This document shows positions 6,959-59,978 of a DNA stretch of 64,000 bases, in pieces. The DNA is from Dokdonella sp. (GTDB lineage Bacteria; Pseudomonadota; Gammaproteobacteria; Xanthomonadales; Rhodanobacteraceae). Position numbers and translations under genes: made by a program. Under the pieces are notes generated by a model. It was given only the letters and a program-made list of their open reading frames with translations, did no database searches and was not told the origin of the DNA. Numbering within the stretch: position 1 is the first letter of the stretch; every line of letters starts with the position of its first letter. The stretch lies in the NCBI RefSeq assembly GCF_019634775.1, contig NZ_JAHCAS010000001.1, forward strand, positions 1,616,894 to 1,680,893, written 5' to 3'.

Positions 6959-9598
6959 TCACCCCACCGAATCGCCCGATCGGTGCGCCACCCAGGCGCC
7001 GATCAGGGCCGAAACGTAGGGAATCGCCTGGGCGGCGAGGATGCCGACCCAGAGCTTGCCTTCGGTGTACTGGATGCCAGTCGAGTGGATCATGCCGATG
7101 ATGCAGCCGGCCAGCGCGACCGCCATCAGCAGTTCCTCGCGCACCGACGAGAACGCGCTCGGCTTGCCGCTCAGACGCCGGCTCTTGGCCGTGCGCACGA
7201 ACTCGCCCTTCTTCTTCCAGAGGCCGAGGAAGATGCCGCGCGCGATGGCGTGCGACAGCCCCATGCTGGCGATCGAGGCCATGATCGTGTCGTACCAGCC
7301 GCAAGGCACGCGCTTGCGGTACAGCACGATGCCGAACACGGCCTTGCTGACGAAGAATCCGATGACCGGGATCAGGAACAGCTCCATCGGCAGGGTGAAC
7401 AGGGTCGGCCAGCCGACCATGCCGATCGTCCAGGCGATGGCCATCATCGTGAACACCAGGTGCAGCGCGTCCGCAAACCAGGAGAACCAGCCGGTCAGGA
7501 AGTGGAACTTCTGGCCGCGGCTGAGCGGGCTGTCCTTGCGCGTCATCCAGCCGAAGCGCGCCTTCATGATCTGCATCGCGCCGAAGGCCCAGCGATAGCG
7601 CTGTGACTTGTAGGCAGTGAAGTCGGCCGGGGTGAGACCCTTGCCCATCAGCTCGTCGACGTAGACGAGTTCATAACCCTGGTGCATCAGGCGCAGGCCG
7701 AGTTCGGCGTCCTCGCAGATCGTCCATTCCGACCACGCACCGGTGTCGACCAGCATGTGCCTGCGCACCATCGTCATCGTACCGTGCTGGATGATCGCGT
7801 TGCGTTCGTTGCGATGGTGCATGCCGATGCGGAAGAAGCCGTCGTACTCCCAGGCGGTCATGCGGCGGAAGCGGTTGTGCTCGAAGTCACGGTGCGCCTG
7901 CGGACACTGCACGACCGCGACCTTCGGGTCGGCGAAATACCCGGTCAGTGCGCCGAGCCAGTCCTTGCGTACCACGTAGTCGGCGTCGATCACGGCGACG
8001 ATTTCGGCGCGCGGGTCGGTCTGTTCGAGGCCGAAATTGAGCGCTCCGGCCTTGAAGCCGGGCCAGGGATCGAGGTGGAAGAAGCGGAAGCGCGGTCCGA
8101 GTTTCGCGCAGTATTCCTCGACCGGGCGCCACACATCCTCGCGCTTGGTGTTGTTGTCGATGACGAGAACCTCGAAGTTCGCGTAGTCGAGCGCGGCCAG
8201 CGAGTCGAGGGTCAGGATCACCATCTCCGGCGGCTCGTTGCAGCAGGCCAGGTGGATTGACACGAACGGCTGCGCTTCGGGCGGCGACGGTTCGAGCAGC
8301 CCGGCGTGTCTGATCCAGCGCGGCCGCCACAGCACTTCGGTGAATTCGAAGCCGTTGATCAGCAGGACGAGGATGATCGCGATCTGTGCCGGAAACAGCA
8401 GCAGCAGCATCGACCAGTCCAGTGGGCTGAGATAGAACGCCAGCGGCAGGCTGATCGACCACACGATGACCGAGGCCGAGAGCTGGATCAGGCCGAGGAA
8501 GAACACCAGGCCGGTCGCGTAGAAGCGGATGAAGTGGCGCGCGAACCAGAACATCGGCAACAGCGCGAGCAGGCAGGCGGCGATCGCCTTGATCTTCCAG
8601 GTCGGATCCTCGACGACCTTGCCGGTGAAGGAGAACTTCGGTTCGCGTGCGGCGTTGAACACGCCCCAGTAGGCCTCGGCGCGTCCGCCGCCGTGCGACT
8701 CCTTCCACGGCTGGTCGATCGCTTCCATCACGTAGTAGTCGATGCGCTCGCGCGCGGCGACGTTGAACCATTCGCGCAGGAACTGGGCCTCGTTCTCGAC
8801 TGACGGCTGCGCATAGGTCTTGCGGTCGCCGTTCGACGGCCAGCCGATTTCGCCGATCACGACCGGCTTGTCGGGGAACAGTTCCTTCAAGCGCTTGTAT
8901 TGGCCGAGGGTGAAGTTGATCGCGTCCTTGCGCGGGATGTGTTCCCAGTACGGCAGCAGGTGCACGCTGATGAAGTCGACGTGGCGGGCGAGCTCGGGAT
9001 TGCGCTCCCACACGAAGAATGGCTCGGCGGTCGACACCGGGATGTCGAGCTGCGCGCGCGCGCGGTCGATGTAGGCGATCAACTGTTCGACCGAAAGGTC
9101 GCCGCGCAGGATGGACTCGTTGCCGACCATCGCGCGGGTGATGTTGGCGTGTTTTCGCGACAGCGCGATCAGGCCCTCGATCTCCTCGTCGTTCTTCTGC
9201 AGGCGGCGGTCGAGCCAGGCGCCGGACATGACCTCCATGCCGTAGAAGTCGGCGATGCGCGGGATCTGCGGACTTTCGATCGACGAGTAGGTGCGCAGGC
9301 GCTTGGCATGCCTGGCCATCAAGCGGATGTCCGCGGCGAGTTCGCTCTCGCTCGGGAACAGGCCCTTGGTCGGATCCTGGTTGCGCTGGAACGCGCTGAA
9401 CGCGAAGCCCTCGACGCGGCCGGTCCAGTCGGCGATCTGCACGGGCCGGTTGAGGAAGGCCCACAGACCGTAGTTGAGTGCGGCGATCGCAAACGCGAAC
9501 AGCAGCGCACGCCAGGTCGATTTCGCGGAGGGATCGGCGGTCTTGCTGCTCAACGGAAACGCGCTGCGGTCGCAACCGCGGATGCGGCGCGGCAGCAT
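6959..9598 (-). CDS. ndvB: Bifunctional GH17 glucanase/transglycosylase - GT2 glycosyltransferase (NdvB-like beta-1,3-glucan synthase)
   Basis: 879 aa with an ATG at 9598. The N-terminal half has GH17-type Glu motifs (AMVGNESIL; VVIGEIGWPSNGD). The C-terminal half is a membrane GT2 (VSIHLACCNEPPEMV, VLVIDNN, AVIDADYV, QCPQAH, QRYRWAFG = QxxRW). As I recall, Pseudomonas aeruginosa NdvB has the same domain order and size. Confidence 0.75.
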   Translation of the reverse strand: MLPRRIRGCDRSAFPLSSKTADPSAKSTWRALLFAFAIAALNYGLWAFLNRPVQIADWTGRVEGFAFSAFQRNQDPTKGLFPSESELAADIRLMARHAKRLRTYSSIESPQIPRIADFYGMEVMSGAWLDRRLQKNDEEIEGLIALSRKHANITRAMVGNESILRGDLSVEQLIAYIDRARAQLDIPVSTAEPFFVWERNPELARHVDFISVHLLPYWEHIPRKDAINFTLGQYKRLKELFPDKPVVIGEIGWPSNGDRKTYAQPSVENEAQFLREWFNVAARERIDYYVMEAIDQPWKESHGGGRAEAYWGVFNAAREPKFSFTGKVVEDPTWKIKAIAACLLALLPMFWFARHFIRFYATGLVFFLGLIQLSASVIVWSISLPLAFYLSPLDWSMLLLLFPAQIAIILVLLINGFEFTEVLWRPRWIRHAGLLEPSPPEAQPFVSIHLACCNEPPEMVILTLDSLAALDYANFEVLVIDNNTKREDVWRPVEEYCAKLGPRFRFFHLDPWPGFKAGALNFGLEQTDPRAEIVAVIDADYVVRKDWLGALTGYFADPKVAVVQCPQAHRDFEHNRFRRMTAWEYDGFFRIGMHHRNERNAIIQHGTMTMVRRHMLVDTGAWSEWTICEDAELGLRLMHQGYELVYVDELMGKGLTPADFTAYKSQRYRWAFGAMQIMKARFGWMTRKDSPLSRGQKFHFLTGWFSWFADALHLVFTMMAIAWTIGMVGWPTLFTLPMELFLIPVIGFFVSKAVFGIVLYRKRVPCGWYDTIMASIASMGLSHAIARGIFLGLWKKKGEFVRTAKSRRLSGKPSAFSSVREELLMAVALAGCIIGMIHSTGIQYTEGKLWVGILAAQAIPYVSALIGAWVAHRSGDSVG

Positions 9599-9747
9599 AG
9601 CCGAAGCGTGCGCGGTCGCTCAATTCGCCCCCGGTTTGCGGAAAGTAGGCATCCGGGCGATGATGCGCGACCCTGCGTGCCCGCCACGCGTGAACACGAT
9701 TGTGGCCGCGCTGCGGTGGCCCGGCCGGGCGGTCCCTGGCTGCGAAC

Positions 9748-50478: not shown

Positions 50479-50932
50479 GGCTCGGCCCGGATCAGTGGGA
50501 CTGAACGCGATGCTGCGCCCATGCCAGCGCGCGCGGCCCTGATCCAGGTCAGGTGACCGCATTTTTTCCGCGCGCCGTCGCGGCGGGGCCGGCAGCGCTG
50601 GCAGCGGCAGCGGTGCGCACGACGCCAGTGCGGGATTGATCGGGGCATCCTTCAGGCCCCGACGCGGATGGCGAGCCTTGCCATTGAGTCCTCCTGTTGG
50701 ATCATTTGGCCGTTTTGCGGATATTCGAGAACGCCACGTGATGGCGGGGTTCGCTGCGGGGCGCTGGTGGCCGGTCACTCTCCGCAAGCCCGGTCATGAT
50801 GGCAACATCGGCTGCAATCCAGCATGGCATCGCTGAAGGATCTGCCATGACGATACGGCGCTGAGAACGCAAAGCCCGCGCCGGGCCATCAAGGCCCGGC
50901 AGCAACGACATTACGCAAAGGAAAAGAACACG

Positions 50933-53804
<2,872 letters not shown>

Positions 53805-53808
<4 letters not shown>

Positions 53809-54029
53809 GCAACATCATCATTTTTGAAACCGATGACCGGCAGGTGCAGGTGCGGCTGGAAGGCGATGCCGTCTGGCTGCGCCAGGTGCCACAGCGGTTC
53901 GGCCGCGAGCGCTCGGTGCTGAAACGGCAGCGCTTCGAGCAGGATGCCGCCGCGCTGGCACAGGCATCCCGCCGCATCGGGCAGCCAGCCGTTCGTCTGT
54001 GGCGTCGTTGTTCCGGTCCCACGTGCTAG
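53805..54029 (+). pseudogene. 74-codon ORF with RhuM-family-like N-terminus; possible truncated remnant
   Basis: [32 protein letters not shown] resembles the first ~45 aa of RhuM-type proteins, which are often found inside type I R-M operons (from memory). The remainder is Arg-rich and ends at TAG 54027-29, inside a hairpin. It has an ATGA overlap with hsdS. Confidence 0.3.
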
Positions 54030-54030
54030 A

Positions 54031-54056
54031 GTTAAGCATAGAAGCCTATGCTTAAC
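54031..54056. repeat. Perfect 11-bp-stem hairpin GTTAAGCATAG-aagc-CTATGCTTAAC
   Basis: Read directly from the sequence. It is AT-rich relative to its context, lies immediately after the stub ORF stop, and is 11 nt upstream of the ATPase ATG. No T-run follows it. Confidence 0.85.
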
Positions 54057-54067
54057 GGCATTTCCGC

Positions 54068-55501
54068 ATGAAAGATGTTTCCAATCAACAGGTTGCAGAG
54101 CATCTTAAGCGCCTGAACCCGTGGTGGCAGAGCGGGGAAATGGATGCGGACACCTTGTCCCTGCATCCTCGCGCCTACCTGGGCCCGGTGCTGCGCTTGC
54201 TGCAGGAACCCAAGCTGCGCCGTGCGGTGGTGCTGCTCGGGCCGCGTCGGGTGGGCAAGACCATCCTGATCCGCCATCTGGTGGCCGACCTGCTGAAGCA
54301 GGGCGTGTCCGCGCAGCGCATCGACTACGTCGAGATGGATCACCCGCTGTTGCATGGGCAAACGCTGGAAGCGCTGATCCGCCAGATCGAGGAAGCCGCG
54401 CCCGGAGGCGATGGCACGCGCTACCTCTTCTTCGACGAAATCCAGTCGCACCGGGACTGGGAAAAACACCTCAAGCCACTGGTGGATCATCGGCCCGACC
54501 TGAAGATCCTGGTGTCCGGCTCGGCGGCCGCGGCGCTCAAGCGCCAGAGCACCGAATCCGGCGCGGGCCGCTTCACCGACTTCCTGCTGCCGCCGCTGAC
54601 GTTCTCCGAATACCTGCAGTTGCGCCAGGAGCCGGCGGCGATCATCGAGGAAGCGCCCGATCGGTATGCGCTGGTCGATATCACGCGCCTGAACGCGCAG
54701 TTCGCCGAGTACGTCAATTACGGCGGCTATCCGGAACTGGCGCTGTCGCCCACCGTGCGCGCCAACCCGGAGCGGTTCGTCAAGTCAGACATCGTGGACA
54801 AGGTGCTGCTGCGCGATCTGCCGCAGTTGTATGGCATCAAGGACATCCAGGAACTCAACTCGCTGTTCACCCTGCTGGCGTTCAACACCGCCGAGGAGGT
54901 TTCGTTCGAGCAGCTTTCGCAGCGCAGCGGCGTGGGCAAGCCAACCATCCAGAAATACATCGAGTATCTGGAGGCAGCCTTCCTCATCAAGCGCGTGTTC
55001 CGGGTGGATCAGGACGGCAAGCGCTATCAGCGCGAGCGTCACTTCAAGGTGTATCTGACCAACTCGGCGATGTACACCGGGCTGTTCGGCGCCCGGTCAG
55101 CGGACGACCCGGAATTCGGCCATCTGGTGGAAACGGCCCTGTTCGCGCAGCGCTTCCATGAGGATGCCCGGCTGAACTATGCCCGCTGGGGTAGTGAAGA
55201 TTGCGAGGTGGATCTGGTCGAATCCTCGCAGACACTCAAACCGGTTGCGGCGCTGGAAATCAAGTGGAGCGACAAGTTCGCGGACAGGCCGGAGGCGCTC
55301 AAGGGCTTGATGAAGTTCGTGCGTGGCAATCACCTGCCCCTGGCCTGGGCTACCACCCGAAGCAGGATCGAACAGCAAGTCATCGACGGCTGCGAGATTC
55401 GCCAATGGCCCGCCGCGGCGCTGGCATTCCACTATGGCGTGCGCGCCGTGCAAGGCCGGATGGCCGGCTATGAGGCGCAGATCAAGAGCATCACCGCATG
55501 A
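54068..55501 (+). CDS. AAA ATPase (AAA_14-like) with wHTH and DUF4143 / PD-(D/E)xK-like C-terminal domain
   Basis: 477 aa. Walker A is [10 protein letters not shown] (aa 56-65) and Walker B is YLFFDEIQ. An HTH-like segment reads [23 protein letters not shown]. The C-terminal segment [24 protein letters not shown] (aa 379-402) fits the D...E-x-K nuclease pattern. Confidence 0.85.
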
Positions 55502-55523
55502 CCAGCAACCCGGAGCGGATCTG

Positions 55524-58736
<3,213 letters not shown>

Positions 58737-59045
58737 TGGTGGTGGAGTGCGGGCGTTGTTTCGACGCTCCTCTTGCAAGCCTGCGCGCGTCGGCGCGGAC
58801 GTCGATGGCAACGGGCGTATGCGGGGGCGTTTCCGAGCTTGCCGCGCATTTCCGCAGCAACGAAAACTGCTGATGCAGCGAGGCAAGTTCTGGCGTGAGT
58901 GTTCAGCGGACGGCATGACGCGCGTGCGCGGATGTGCGGCGCGATCCTTGCCGTCGTCGGTTCGATTCCGCGTGTTGAATGCAATCGCGCCCTGCACCGA
59001 GCCAGTGCCAGTGCCAGTGCGGCGCAAATGCCTGACAATCCCCCC

Positions 59046-59693
59046 ATGTGCAATCGCTTCGTCTCACCCGCGCAGGAAGTGATCGAGGCGCACTGGGGCC
59101 TGGAACCCAGCGCCCAACCTGCGTGGGCGGCCTCGATTCATCCGCGCGCACTTGGCCCGTTCATTCGTGCCCGGGGCGACGGGCGCGAACTCATCGTCGG
59201 TCAGTGGGCGCTGATCCCGCACTTCGCCAAGACCGCGAAGTTGAACTACTCGACCAACAACGCCCGCGCGGAGGAACTGGCGCAGAAGGCCAGTTATCGC
59301 GATCCGTGGAAGCGCGGCCAGCGGTGCATCATCCCGGCCATGTCCTTCGACGAACCGAATTGGGAAACCGGCAAGAACGTGTGGTGGCGCTTCCACCGCG
59401 CCGACGGCACGCCGTGGGGGCTGGCGGGCATCTGGAATACCTGGATCGACCGCGCCACGGGCGAGGTGGTCGAAAGCTATTCGATGCTGACCCTCAACGC
59501 CGACGAGCACCCGCTGATGCGCCGGATGCACAAGCCCGATCCGGCCTATGGCCCCGACGAACAGGACAAACGTTCGGTCATTCCCATCGAGATCGGTGAT
59601 GTCGATGCGTGGTTGCATGGCAGCGTCGAGGAGGCGTCGCGGCTGCTGCGGCTTGCGCCTGTCGAGGTGTTTGCCGCTGCACCTGTTGCCTGA
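59046..59693 (+). CDS. SOS response-associated peptidase (SRAP / YedK-like)
   Basis: ATG 59046 within ORF 58899..59693. It begins MCNRF, with catalytic Cys2. Other motifs: ..STNNARAEEL.., SYRDPWKRGQRCIIPAMSFDEPNWE, WGLAGIWNTW. Confidence 0.85.
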   Translation: MCNRFVSPAQEVIEAHWGLEPSAQPAWAASIHPRALGPFIRARGDGRELIVGQWALIPHFAKTAKLNYSTNNARAEELAQKASYRDPWKRGQRCIIPAMSFDEPNWETGKNVWWRFHRADGTPWGLAGIWNTWIDRATGEVVESYSMLTLNADEHPLMRRMHKPDPAYGPDEQDKRSVIPIEIGDVDAWLHGSVEEASRLLRLAPVEVFAAAPVA

Positions 59694-59902
59694 AGGCGCG
59701 AACAGGCGAAGTTGGCGTAAGGATGCACTGATCAAACCCGCAATGGCTTCATGACATCCACAAGGATCGCTGCGTGGCGGGCGTGGCGATGTGGGCATCG
59801 CGGGCGGATCCGGCGGCCCGGCGACGGACCTGCCGCAGGCGCATGCTGCGCGGGACGGGCGAAGCGAACCGGCCGGCGACGGCGGGTTCGTTTGCATGAA
59901 GA

Positions 59903-59978
59903 TGGTGGCCAAGGGCGGAATCGAACCACCGACACGCGGATTTTCAATCCGCTGCTCTACCAACTGAGCTACTTGGCC
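59903..59978 (-). tRNA. tRNA-Phe (anticodon GAA), CCA encoded
   Basis: The reverse strand reads GGCCAAGTAGCTCAGTTGGTAGAGCAGCGGATTGAAAATCCGCGTGTCGGTGGTTCGATTCCGCCCTTGGCCACCA. It folds by hand into a cloverleaf with a 7-bp acceptor stem, the GCTC/GAGC D stem, the GCGGA/TCCGC anticodon stem, the loop TTGAAAA and a TTCGATT T-loop. Confidence 0.95.

What the first reader, a model, noticed from the sequence alone, without database searches (positions are those of the whole stretch)
54068..55501. AAA ATPase fused to a PD-(D/E)xK-like module inserted between hsdS and hsdR: candidate single-gene defence or R-M accessory factor
Seen: a 477-aa ORF sits inside the type I operon, in the same orientation. 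It starts 11 nt after a perfect hairpin, and 22 nt separate its stop from the hsdR ATG. It has Walker A GPRRVGKT, Walker B YLFFDEIQ and a wHTH-like segment ([15 protein letters not shown]). Its C-terminal segment [24 protein letters not shown] (nt ~55202-55273) fits the D...(D/E)xK nuclease signature.

From memory, this is the AAA_14 + DUF4143 (COG1373) architecture. It is widespread but lacks a defined function, and I do not know of it as a named defence system. Inference: NTPase-plus-nuclease fusions embedded in R-M loci are typical of anti-phage or anti-plasmid modules. It could also modulate or back up the type I enzyme.
Basis: partly seen in the sequence, partly recalled or inferred. Interest (0 to 1): 0.7.

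Follow-up and report, generated by a model that had tools for sequence, protein, structure and literature searches.

The report
Candidate defence ATPase-nuclease inside restriction operon
A gene for a predicted ATP-driven DNA-cutting protein sits as a self-contained cassette inside a type I restriction-modification operon. It belongs to a very common family already catalogued, but never proven, as a candidate anti-phage gene, so the finding is real but not new.

Summary
The 477-aa ORF (54068..55501), the perfect hairpin 11 nt upstream, the 22-nt gap to hsdR and all quoted motifs are present. The protein is AAA_14 + DUF4143 and matches seven PADLOC PDC-S01 models (best 5.5e-58). PDC-S01 is a "phage defence candidate" that Payne et al. 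(2024) nominated because such genes lie embedded in type I R-M, BREX or DISARM loci. The only test I found, one representative in E. coli against T4, T5 and T7, gave no protection.

New here:
- The gene belongs to a tight, horizontally spread clade (76-91% identity). 21 of 48 loci, and 15 of 25 well-flanked ones, lie inside type I operons of several families and gene orders.
- The clade travels as a compact cassette.
- In 80 close HsdR relatives the same hsdS-hsdR slot is empty or holds Abi_C, Fic/SoFic, SIR2, PrrC-like ATPase, RhuM or KwaB-like genes. A RhuM/Fic remnant survives in this window.

Best reading: independent defence-type cargo, an Orc/STAND-like AAA+ module, winged helix and PD-(D/E)xK nuclease. 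A dedicated R-M accessory role is unlikely. Function remains unproven.

The parts
50933..52504 (+). hsdM, type I methyltransferase (523 aa)
   Evidence: Pfam HsdM_N + N6_Mtase at 5e-109. PADLOC MTase_I at 1.5e-221.
52501..53808 (+). hsdS, specificity subunit (435 aa); its start overlaps the hsdM stop
   Evidence: Pfam Methylase_S. PADLOC Specificity_I at 7.9e-116.
53805..54029 (+). 74-codon ORF, the N-terminal remnant of a RhuM/Fic-family gene. Its ATG overlaps the hsdS stop and its TAG lies inside the -10 element of the cassette.
   Evidence: The translation starts [25 protein letters not shown]. tblastn matches the N-termini of annotated 'RhuM/Fic/DOC family' proteins, best 6e-7 with 48% identity over 42 aa. 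It is called as a 74-aa gene in public assemblies. There is no Pfam hit. Intact Fic genes occupy this position in L011 and L046.
54024..54032 (+). TGcTAGAGT, a predicted extended -10 promoter element and the left edge of the conserved cassette
   Evidence: In 46 aligned loci the conservation is T 46/46, G 45/46, n, T 44/46, A 45/46, nnn, T 45/46. Sequence upstream of it is unrelated between loci. The promoter role is inferred. The two-hexamer sigma-70 scan finds nothing.
54032..54055 (.). Probably an operator overlapping the -10 and the transcription start.
   Evidence: It is unique in the window, with 0 expected by chance. It is conserved in all 46 loci, and the 4-nt spacer is variable (29 different sequences). 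The one variable pair shows no covariation: C-G 18, T-A 10, T-G 9, C-A 9. There is no Rfam match. It is stable if transcribed (-18.7 kcal/mol) and is not followed by a U-tract.
54068..55501 (+). PDC-S01-family gene (477 aa): AAA_14 ATPase + winged helix + DUF4143 PD-(D/E)xK-like domain
   Evidence: Pfam, PADLOC PDC-S01 at 5.5e-58, and an AlphaFold2 model with pLDDT 86.7 and pTM 0.88.
54068..54205 (+). N-terminal helical segment (residues 1-46) with the family-wide NPWW motif and R35
   Evidence: In 100 diverse representatives N17 is kept in 96%, P18 in 90%, W19 in 97%, W20 in 96% and R35 in 97%. The model shows helices 6-16, 19-22, 27-31 and 38-46.
54206..54802 (+). AAA+ core and lid (residues 47-245): Walker A K64, Walker B D123/E124, candidate arginine finger R168
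   Evidence: K64 is kept in 99%, D123 in 99%, E124 in 81% and R168 in 78%. Foldseek whole-protein hits are MalT, Orc1/Cdc6 (2qby), ORC4, Avs5, Apaf-1, CED-4, RuvB and RFC, at E 2.5e-7 to 1e-4.
54830..55063 (+). Winged helix-turn-helix (residues 255-332); recognition helix 291-303
   Evidence: The secondary-structure pattern is H-E-H-H-E-E. There is a weak MarR_2 hit at residues 268-318, E 0.004. The Orc1/Cdc6 alignment spans this region.
55100..55411 (+). PD-(D/E)xK-like domain (residues 345-448): E355, D382, E397, K399
   Evidence: The predicted order is alpha-beta-beta-beta-alpha-beta. The motif is conserved. DUF4143 is listed in the PD-(D/E)XK superfamily (PMC3424549). Foldseek hits are only weak: McrC, EndoMS, AspBHI, Kpn2I, DdmD and Cap4, at E 0.02-0.5.
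55412..55498 (+). Long C-terminal helix (residues 449-477); possible oligomerisation element (inferred)
   Evidence: Helix 449-476 in the model.
55512..55515 (+). GGAG ribosome-binding site for hsdR, 8 nt before its ATG
   Evidence: Read directly from the sequence.
55524..58736 (+). hsdR, restriction subunit (1070 aa), probably co-transcribed with the cassette
   Evidence: Pfam HSDR_N, SWI2_SNF2, T1R_D3-like and T1RH-like_C. PADLOC REase_I at E 0.

Best explanation
The ORF is a member of the AAA_14/DUF4143 family that PADLOC lists as phage-defence candidate PDC-S01.

It sits in the hsdS-hsdR slot of a type I R-M operon as independent, horizontally acquired cargo, not as a subunit or dedicated accessory of the restriction enzyme.

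Shown:
- It is a compact cassette with its own near-invariant TGnTAnnnT element and a 24-bp palindrome immediately upstream.
- The cassette ends at the stop codon.
- It encodes an Orc/Cdc6/STAND-like AAA+ module with intact Walker A and B motifs, a winged helix, and a C-terminal domain with a conserved E...D...ExK signature.

Inferred mechanism:
1. The gene is transcribed from its own extended -10 promoter.
2. It is held at a low level by a dimeric DNA-binding protein on the palindrome. The cassette's own winged helix is the most economical candidate for that protein.
3. On an unknown infection or foreign-DNA cue, ATP-dependent oligomerisation on DNA brings the PD-(D/E)xK domains together.
4. 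DNA is cut, either the invader's or the host's (abortive infection). In effect this is a single-chain counterpart of an AAA+ motor plus PD-(D/E)xK nuclease such as McrBC.

Because only 22 nt and a ribosome-binding site separate it from hsdR, the cassette's promoter probably also contributes to hsdR transcription.
For: Family.
- Pfam AAA_14 at 3.5e-31 and DUF4143 at 6.3e-22.
- Seven PDC-S01 models match, best 5.5e-58.
- PDC-S01 was defined from genes embedded in type I R-M, BREX or DISARM. It is described as an ATPase fused to a PD-(D/E)xK domain.

Structure.
- The full-length model has pLDDT 86.7 and pTM 0.88.
- Foldseek finds MalT, Orc1/Cdc6 bound to DNA, ORC4, Avs5, Apaf-1 and CED-4.

Active sites are under selection. 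In 100 representatives at 30-52% identity, K64 is kept in 99%, D123 in 99%, E355 in 91%, D382 in 90%, E397 in 80% (plus 7% D) and K399 in 71%.

Context.
- 21 of 48 close-clade loci from different species are embedded in type I operons, always co-oriented. Among loci with at least 3 kb on both sides the count is 15 of 25.
- Immediate neighbours by Pfam are HsdR 7, HsdM-like 6+4, HsdS 6, GmrSD 2, Fic 2, AbiEii 1, HicB 1 and RhuM 1.
- By PADLOC, at least 27 of the 90 immediate neighbours are type I components.

Hotspot.
- None of 80 metagenomic loci with HsdR 78-93% identical to this one carries the gene.
- Their S-R gap ranges from 5 nt to 4.8 kb.
- A sample of 37 ORFs from 22 of these gaps includes Abi_C (10 ORFs), Fic/SoFic (5), SIR2_2/PDC-S65 (4), AAA_13/PDC-S06 with weaker PrrC-model matches (3), RhuM (2) and KwaB-like (1).
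- A RhuM/Fic remnant lies just upstream in this window.

Cassette and regulatory element.
- DNA homology begins about 48 nt before the start codon and ends at the stop codon.
- The TG-n-TA-nnn-T positions are 44-46 of 46 conserved.
- The palindrome shows no pairing covariation, which favours a DNA site over an RNA stem.

Mobility.
- The hsd region has 56-65% GC against 69-72% in the flanks and lies next to tRNA-Phe.
- Family members occur on 422 plasmid records.
Against: - No member of the family has a demonstrated function.
- The only test I found was negative. One cold-seep PDC-S01 representative in E. coli B, challenged with T4, T5 and T7, was not among the four candidates that protected (PMC12881386).
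- Foldseek on the isolated C-terminal domain gave no hit at E<=1e-3. A profile search of PDB sequences found nothing. The nuclease fold therefore rests on the motif, the predicted topology and the literature classification.
- The protein has no recognisable sensor domain, so the trigger is unknown.
- The family is extraordinarily abundant. Payne et al. report that the candidates found by embedding (HECs and PDCs, as a group) associate less with other defence systems than enrichment-derived systems do. This leaves room for a non-defence role.
- Nothing shows which protein binds the palindrome. The Bacteroidota clade (about 44% identity) keeps a similar recognition helix, but I found no comparable upstream palindrome there.
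- The promoter is inferred from conservation alone (one search found no two-hexamer promoter).
Confidence: 0.55

Rival explanations
1. PrrC-like guard of the type I enzyme. The protein is held inactive by, or monitors, the HsdMSR complex. It is unleashed when a phage anti-restriction protein disables restriction, giving a back-up nuclease response.
For: - It occupies exactly the position of prrC in EcoprrI, between hsdS and hsdR and co-oriented. Payne et al. discuss that precedent.
- 44-60% of the close clade is embedded in type I operons, and always directly upstream of an hsd or GmrSD-like gene at -55 to +135 nt.
- PrrC-like AAA_13 ATPases are alternative cargo in the same slot.
Against: - The same clade (76-91% identity) is found in at least three arrangements: M-S-[P]-R, R-S-[P]-M and M-[P]-GmrSD-like. 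The Hsd proteins in those loci are only 24-30% identical to those here. More than half of all loci have no R-M nearby. A specific protein-protein partnership is therefore unlikely.
- The type I family of this window is found with an empty slot or with other cargo in 80 of 80 close relatives.
- The ATPase is AAA+/Orc-like, not the ABC type of PrrC, and the PrrC PADLOC model is not hit.
Confidence: 0.12
2. Transcriptional controller. The winged-helix protein binds the palindrome and sets the timing or level of the downstream hsdR (or hsdM) gene, as C-proteins do for type II systems. The ATPase and nuclease-like domains would serve regulation, not defence.
For: - A near-invariant promoter-like element plus palindrome lies directly upstream.
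- In all 21 R-M-embedded loci the next gene follows within 135 nt or overlaps it, so it would be co-transcribed.
- There is no terminator-like site between the ORF and hsdR.
Against: - At least 27 of 48 clade members have no hsd gene downstream yet keep the same element.
- Catalytic nuclease and ATPase residues are conserved family-wide, which is unnecessary for a repressor.
- Close relatives of this R-M system function without it.
Confidence: 0.08
3. Not a defence gene. It could be a selfish or mobile-element-associated ATPase-nuclease (addiction, element maintenance, homing-like spread) or a DNA-transaction factor. On this view it accumulates in R-M operons only because those sites tolerate insertions and are transferred often.
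For: - The cassette is compact and sharply bounded, spread across orders at 76-91% identity.
- Two copies occur in one locus (L025) and decayed copies exist (L051, L070).
- The family is extremely abundant (PMC12988326 and PMC13356809) and is present on 422 plasmid records.
- The phage test was negative.
- Some neighbours are housekeeping genes such as MnmE, guanylate kinase and transporters.
Against: - There is no transposase, integrase or repeat at the cassette ends, and no conserved target sequence in the flanks. A homing or transposition mechanism therefore has no support.
- The slot it occupies otherwise holds recognised defence genes.
- The non-R-M neighbours include AbiEii, HicB, Fic, GmrSD and OLD-like genes.
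Confidence: 0.2

Closest known systems
PDC-S01 (PADLOC v2 phage defence candidate; Payne, Hughes, Fineran & Jackson 2024, 'guilt-by-embedding')
   Same: Strong matches to seven PDC-S01 models. Same single-gene AAA_14 + DUF4143 architecture. Same kind of context (embedded in type I R-M) that was used to nominate the family.
   Different: Nothing essential differs. This is one clade of the family, distinguished by very high conservation, a 44-60% embedding rate and a conserved promoter/palindrome. I did not find these features described in the papers I read.
PrrC / EcoprrI (anticodon nuclease embedded between hsdS and hsdR)
   Same: Same slot and orientation in a type I operon. An NTPase fused to a nuclease.
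   Different: PrrC has an ABC-type ATPase and a tRNA anticodon nuclease, and is almost exclusively R-M-embedded. This protein is AAA+/Orc-like with a winged helix and a PD-(D/E)xK-like domain, and about half of its clade is not in R-M.
McrBC
   Same: An AAA+ motor combined with a PD-(D/E)xK nuclease and a DNA-binding domain. McrC is among the best, though weak, structural matches of the C-terminal domain.
   Different: McrBC is two proteins. McrB is a GTPase, and its N-terminal DNA-binding domain reads modified DNA. Here everything is in one chain with an Orc/STAND-like ATPase. No sequence similarity was detected.
Orc1/Cdc6 initiators and STAND NTPases (MalT, Avs, Apaf-1)
   Same: Best whole-protein structural matches: P-loop core, helical lid and winged helix in the same order.
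   Different: TM-scores are low (0.25-0.40). There is no C-terminal repeat sensor as in STAND/Avs. The nuclease is C-terminal, whereas the nuclease effectors of Avs proteins are N-terminal (from my own knowledge; not checked here).
COG1672 archaeal/bacterial ATPases with DUF234
   Same: The same overall idea, an ATPase followed by a PD-(D/E)xK domain. There is a weak DUF234 hit at residues 368-402. Both families are listed in the PD-(D/E)XK survey.
   Different: These are different Pfam families. DUF234 proteins are equally uncharacterised.
C-protein controllers of type II R-M systems
   Same: A palindromic site at the promoter of an operon whose downstream gene is the restriction subunit.
   Different: C-proteins are about 80-aa HTH proteins without enzymatic domains. 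Binding has not been tested here.

Membership tests
PDC-S01 (PADLOC) | Significant match to the PDC-S01 profile HMMs over most of the protein | tested here: met
   Seven models match. The best is PDLC04787 at 5.5e-58, covering residues 50-388 against profile positions 26-347 of 412.
PDC-S01 (PADLOC) | Single gene combining an ATPase with a PD-(D/E)xK-superfamily domain | tested here: met
   AAA_14 + DUF4143 in one ORF. The family description is in PMC12988326.
PDC-S01 (PADLOC) | Anti-phage activity | not testable with these tools
   There is no experimental support. One representative tested elsewhere gave no protection (PMC12881386).
AAA+ / Orc-Cdc6-STAND-like P-loop NTPases | Walker A lysine, Walker B acidic pair, arginine finger | tested here: met
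   K64 is kept in 99%, D123 in 99% and E124 in 81% of representatives. The candidate finger R168 is kept in 78%. The role of R168 is inferred.
AAA+ / Orc-Cdc6-STAND-like P-loop NTPases | Fold similarity to solved members | tested here: met
   Foldseek probability is 1.00, with E 2.5e-7 to 1e-4 against MalT, Orc1/Cdc6, ORC4, Avs5, Apaf-1, RuvB and RFC. TM-scores are only 0.25-0.40.
STAND / Avs defence NTPases | C-terminal repeat sensor domain (TPR, WD40 or LRR) | tested here: not met
   No repeat domain appears in Pfam or in the model. The C-terminus is a nuclease-like domain plus one helix.
PD-(D/E)xK nuclease superfamily | Conserved acidic residues and lysine: E on helix 1, D on strand 2, (D/E)xK on strand 3 | tested here: met
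   E355, D382, E397 and K399 are invariant or nearly so in A1 and A8. They are 71-91% conserved in 100 diverse representatives.
PD-(D/E)xK nuclease superfamily | Alpha-beta-beta-beta-alpha-beta core fold resembling solved nucleases | tested here: inconclusive
   The predicted element order fits. Foldseek on the isolated domain gave no hit at E<=1e-3. Weak hits (E 0.02-0.5) include McrC, EndoMS, AspBHI, Kpn2I, DdmD and Cap4. A PDB profile search was empty. The literature places DUF4143 in the superfamily.
PD-(D/E)xK nuclease superfamily | Metal-dependent phosphodiester cleavage | not testable with these tools
   This needs biochemistry.
PrrC/RloC-type R-M-embedded anticodon nucleases | ABC-type ATPase and anticodon-nuclease domain; match to the PrrC model | tested here: not met
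   The PrrC PADLOC model is not among the hits. The ATPase fold is AAA+/Orc-like.
PrrC/RloC-type R-M-embedded anticodon nucleases | Near-exclusive embedding in one type I family | tested here: not met
   21 of 48 loci are embedded, in several type I families and gene orders. 0 of 80 close relatives of this HsdR carry the gene.
C-protein-type R-M controllers | Small HTH protein binding a palindromic box upstream of its own gene and the restriction gene | tested here: inconclusive
   A palindrome and promoter-like element are present and conserved. The protein is 477 aa with enzymatic domains, and binding is untested.

The most novel reading that the evidence does not exclude
In this R-M-associated clade the cassette does two jobs. 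First, its own winged helix autoregulates the conserved extended -10 promoter and palindrome, and that promoter takes over transcription of the downstream hsdR (or hsdM). Expression of the restriction subunit would then be gated by the cassette, as C-proteins gate type II enzymes. Second, the same protein is an ATP-dependent nuclease that fires when restriction is subverted. This would be a combined controller and guard for type I systems, which has not been described.
Probability: 0.1. Interest if true: 0.7.

Novelty: new member of a known kind. Interest (0 to 1): 0.35.

Why it matters
PDC-S01 is reported as one of the most frequent 'defence' calls in bacterial and archaeal genomes: fourth most common overall, and the most frequent single locus in rumen genomes. 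No member has a known activity, and the only test I found was negative. If the family is not defensive, many defensome surveys are inflated. If it is, a major immune module is uncharacterised.

This locus and its clade are a good entry point for three reasons:
- The cassette is very compact and well bounded, with its own conserved promoter-like element and palindrome.
- Natural comparisons exist, with and without type I R-M.
- The active-site residues for mutagenesis are clear.

The hsdS-hsdR slot of this type I family is also a clean example of a cargo hotspot that could be mined for further candidates.

Tried and rejected
- PDB sequence searches with the whole protein and with a C-terminal-domain profile found nothing significant.
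- Foldseek on the isolated C-terminal domain (model pLDDT 78.8) gave no hit at E<=1e-3.
- NCBIfam gave no meaningful hit.
- Rfam found no family in 53750..54150. The two-hexamer sigma-70 scan found no promoter. The extended -10 is inferred from conservation only.
- An RNA-hairpin reading of the palindrome was rejected as the primary explanation. The only variable pair varies independently on the two arms: C-G 18, T-A 10, T-G 9, C-A 9, against 15.8, 7.8, 11.2 and 11.2 expected. No U-tract follows.
- A homing-endonuclease or transposon reading was considered and set aside. The flanks outside -48..stop are unrelated between loci, there are no terminal repeats and there is no recombinase.
- I looked for the same upstream palindrome in the Bacteroidota clade (about 44% identity). 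I saw only terminator-like stems about 100 nt upstream.
- GC3-filtered gene calling lost the low-GC island genes. I replaced it with longest-ORF calling with start trimming. Neighbour calls remain approximate.
- Literature searches for DUF4143, COG1373, AAA_14 and PDC-S01 found no functional study. The held supplements of Payne et al. did not show a PDC-S01 row, and the file was cut. No supplements were held for PMC12366544.
Full report
**1.

The ORF at 54068..55501 (+) encodes 477 aa. The hairpin GTTAAGCATAG-AAGC-CTATGCTTAAC lies at 54031..54056 and ends 11 nt before the ATG. The stop is at 55499..55501 and the hsdR ATG at 55524, so 22 nt lie between them, with a GGAG at 55512..55515.

The quoted motifs are all present: Walker A G58PRRVGKT65, Walker B YLFFDEIQ (D123, E124), the [15 protein letters not shown] helix, and C379...D402 with D382 and E397-x-K399. 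Pfam assigns AAA_14 (3.5e-31) and DUF4143 (6.3e-22). The neighbours are complete hsdM, hsdS and hsdR genes on the same strand.

The 260 nt between hsdS and the ORF contain a 74-codon ORF (53805..54029). Its first 42 residues or so match the N-termini of annotated RhuM/Fic-family proteins, best E = 6e-7. Public assemblies of the same organism call it as a gene.

**2. It is already catalogued**

The protein matches seven PADLOC 'PDC-S01' models, best 5.5e-58. PDC stands for phage defence candidate. Payne et al. (bioRxiv 10.1101/2024.01.29.577857) collected genes embedded in BREX, DISARM and type I R-M systems. They removed known defence, mobility and housekeeping genes and released 145 untested candidates through PADLOC.

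Later surveys add the following:
- It is the most frequent single locus in rumen genomes (PMC13356809).
- One PDC-S01 representative was expressed in E. coli B and challenged with T4, T5 and T7. It was not among the four candidates that protected (PMC12881386).

Searches for DUF4143, COG1373 and AAA_14 found no functional study. DUF4143 is listed as a PD-(D/E)XK family of unknown function (PMC3424549).

**3. The protein**

The AlphaFold2 model built on a 37-sequence alignment is confident, with pLDDT 86.7 and pTM 0.88. It shows these parts in order:
- an N-terminal helical segment carrying the family-wide NPWW motif;
- a P-loop core and lid;
- a winged helix (residues about 255-332);
- an alpha-beta-beta-beta-alpha-beta domain (about 345-448);
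- a long terminal helix.

Foldseek against the PDB returns MalT, Orc1/Cdc6 bound to origin DNA, ORC4, Avs5, Apaf-1, CED-4, RuvB and RFC. Probabilities are 1.00 and E ranges from 2.5e-7 to 1e-4, but TM-scores are only 0.25-0.40. The ATPase is therefore of the Orc/Cdc6/STAND-like kind, followed by a winged helix, and has no repeat sensor.

I modelled the C-terminal domain alone (pLDDT 78.8). It gave no Foldseek hit at E<=1e-3. The weak top hits do include several PD-(D/E)xK nucleases: McrC, EndoMS, AspBHI, Kpn2I, DdmD and Cap4. A profile search of PDB sequences was empty.

The motif is conserved. In 100 representatives at 30-52% identity, drawn from a library search that found 8479 clusters, the figures are as follows:
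- ATPase: K64 99%, D123 99%, E124 81%, R168 78%.
- Nuclease-like domain: E355 91%, D382 90%, E397 80% (plus 7% D), K399 71%.

Both the ATPase and the putative nuclease site are under selection in most of the family. The fold assignment is likely but not proven here.

**4. The gene belongs to a tight, mobile, R-M-associated clade**

A scan of one genome per species returned 71 loci. 48 of them carry a full-length copy at 76-91% amino-acid identity. These come from many gamma- and betaproteobacterial orders, plus a few MAGs assigned to other phyla.

I searched the loci by tblastn with 17 Hsd queries taken from five type I families:
- 21 of 48 loci have the gene inside a type I operon, always co-oriented.
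- Among loci with at least 3 kb on both sides the count is 15 of 25.
- In the more distant Bacteroidota-dominated clade (43-48% identity) only 1-2 of 17 loci are in R-M.

The arrangements differ between loci:
- M-S-[P]-R: this window, L003, L005, L016, L024 and L031. L007, L011, L041 and L046 have extra cargo between S and P.
- R-S-[P]-M: L001, L004, L025, L044, L013 and L014.
- M-[P]-GmrSD-like: L026-L028, L030 and L032.

The Hsd proteins in many of these loci are only 24-30% identical to those of the window. Pfam and PADLOC scans of the immediate neighbours agree with this picture. The remaining neighbours are a mix of defence or toxin-type genes (Fic, AbiEii, HicB, GmrSD, OLD-like, M78 peptidase) and ordinary housekeeping genes.

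**5. It travels as a compact cassette with its own control element**

I aligned the 80 nt upstream of 46 clade members.
- Unrelated sequence gives way, about 48 nt before the start codon, to cgTGcTAgAGTTAAGCAYAG-N4-CTRTGCTTAAc...ATG.
- The positions T, G, n, T, A, nnn, T are conserved in 44-46 of 46 sequences. That is the pattern of an extended -10 promoter (window 54024..54032).
- Its spacer is variable (29 different sequences).
- Its only variable pair shows no covariation: C-G 18, T-A 10, T-G 9, C-A 9.

The two arms are therefore conserved as sequence, which fits two half-sites for a dimeric DNA-binding protein better than an RNA stem. It would still fold stably if transcribed from upstream (-18.7 kcal/mol, z = -3.8). 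No Rfam family matches.

Homology ends at the stop codon. The cassette has no obvious ribosome-binding site. In R-M contexts the next gene follows within -55 to +135 nt, and nothing terminator-like intervenes here. L025 carries two copies, each with the element.

Which protein binds the palindrome is not shown. The cassette's own winged helix is the simplest candidate.

**6. The slot is a cargo hotspot, and the type I enzyme does not need this gene**

I fetched 80 metagenomic loci whose HsdR is 78-93% identical to the window's. None carries the gene. The hsdS-hsdR gap in them is 5-38 nt in five loci. In the others it falls into about a dozen size classes from 0.75 to 4.8 kb.

I took 37 ORFs from 22 of these gaps. 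All are co-oriented. They include:
- Abi_C (10 ORFs);
- Fic/SoFic (5);
- SIR2_2 / PDC-S65 (4);
- AAA_13 / PDC-S06, which also match the PrrC model more weakly (3);
- RhuM (2);
- DUF3800 (2);
- KwaB-like (1);
- a BstXI-like nuclease (1).

The RhuM/Fic remnant in the window fits this picture. So do the intact Fic genes immediately upstream of the cassette in L011 and L046. Together they indicate that cargo in this slot is exchanged and eroded over time.

The whole hsd region has 56-65% GC against 69-72% in the flanks. It ends near tRNA-Phe at 59903..59978.

**7. Interpretation**

The best-supported reading (about 0.55) is that this is independent defence-type cargo. It would be an autoregulated, ATP-dependent, DNA-binding PD-(D/E)xK endonuclease with an Orc/STAND-like motor, working in effect like a single-chain McrBC. 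It lies in the R-M operon because that slot accepts and co-transfers such genes.

Shown: family membership, architecture, motif conservation, embedding frequency, cassette boundaries, the conserved upstream element and the hotspot.

Inferred: promoter and operator function, oligomerisation, nuclease activity, the defence role and the trigger.

Rival readings:
- The PrrC-like guard (about 0.12) is weakened by the variety of R-M partners and by the many solo copies.
- The controller reading (about 0.08) is weakened by the conserved catalytic residues and the solo copies.
- A non-defence or selfish role (about 0.2) stays open, given the negative phage test and the family's extreme abundance. No mobility machinery or target site is visible, however.

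**8. Verdict**

The feature is real and the annotation is correct. The hypothesis is reasonable, but it has been anticipated by PADLOC's PDC-S01. Novelty: a new member of a known, unvalidated kind. Three results appear to go beyond the papers I read and make the locus a practical experimental entry point: the clade-specific promoter/palindrome, the high embedding rate and the hotspot comparison. Interest is 0.35.

Noticed in passing
window 53805..54029 (+): A 74-codon ORF overlaps the hsdS stop. Its first 42 residues or so match RhuM/Fic-family N-termini (best 6e-7), and the rest is unrelated. It is a remnant of earlier cargo in the hsdS-hsdR slot. Its stop codon lies inside the cassette's -10 element.
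   Followed up: yes
window 54024..54055; loci L001-L047 and L064, about -48 to -12 from the start codon: A near-invariant TGnTAnnnT element plus the palindrome TTAAGCAYAG-N4-CTRTGCTTAA lies upstream of every clade member, whatever the genomic context. Related but diverged palindromes occur in L048 (67% identity), L049 (61%) and L052 (47%, followed by TATAAT).
   Followed up: yes
L078-L157, between hsdS and hsdR: The hsdS-hsdR gap of this type I family is a cargo hotspot. It is empty in five loci. Elsewhere it holds Abi_C, Fic/SoFic, SIR2_2 (PDC-S65), AAA_13 (PDC-S06, with weaker PrrC-model matches), RhuM, DUF3800, KwaB-like, DUF1828/1829 or BstXI-like genes, all co-oriented. The most common cargo, a gene of about 248 aa with an Abi_C domain, has no PADLOC hit.
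   Followed up: partly
window about 50800..59900; tRNA-Phe 59903..59978 (-); SRAP gene 58986..59693 (+): The hsd operon and a downstream SRAP (SOS-response-associated peptidase) gene form a lower-GC block (56-65% against 69-72% in the flanks). The block ends at a tRNA-Phe gene, so it looks like a genomic island. No integrase was seen.
   Followed up: partly
L025 4164..5600 and 8267..9709; L026 6780..8012: L025 carries two clade copies (81% identical to each other) flanking an HsdM-like gene, each with its own promoter/palindrome. L026 carries a distant 410-aa paralogue (27% identity, with its own D...ExK motif) upstream of hsdM, in addition to the clade copy.
   Followed up: partly
L051 10001..10955; L070 827..2270: These are decayed copies of the clade gene, with internal deletions and fragments. 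The cassette is sometimes lost by erosion.
   Followed up: no
window 54057..54067, and the same region in alignment A4: There is no Shine-Dalgarno-like sequence before the ORF, only a conserved A/T-rich patch. Start codons in the clade are ATG 35, GTG 7 and TTG 4. Many database entries start at M25 (453-aa versions), although residues 1-24 with NPWW are conserved.
   Followed up: no
L002, L007, L038: Clade copies at 79-87% identity occur in MAGs labelled Verrucomicrobiaceae, Candidatus Saccharibacteria and Cystobacterineae. This is either very wide recent transfer or binning contamination.
   Followed up: no
window 54530..54562 (residues 155-165): This is the only low-confidence stretch of the model (pLDDT < 50). 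It is a loop just before the conserved ESGAGR segment that holds the candidate arginine finger. It may be a flexible DNA- or subunit-contact loop.
   Followed up: no
L007 2486..4912; L011 813..2981; L046 1417..3821: Other genes share the slot with the cassette. L007 has a GNAT-EVE fusion, an ASCH protein and a small AAA_17 kinase-like protein. L011 has an OLD-like AAA_15 + TOPRIM protein plus Fic. L046 has an M78 (IrrE-like) peptidase plus Fic.
   Followed up: partly
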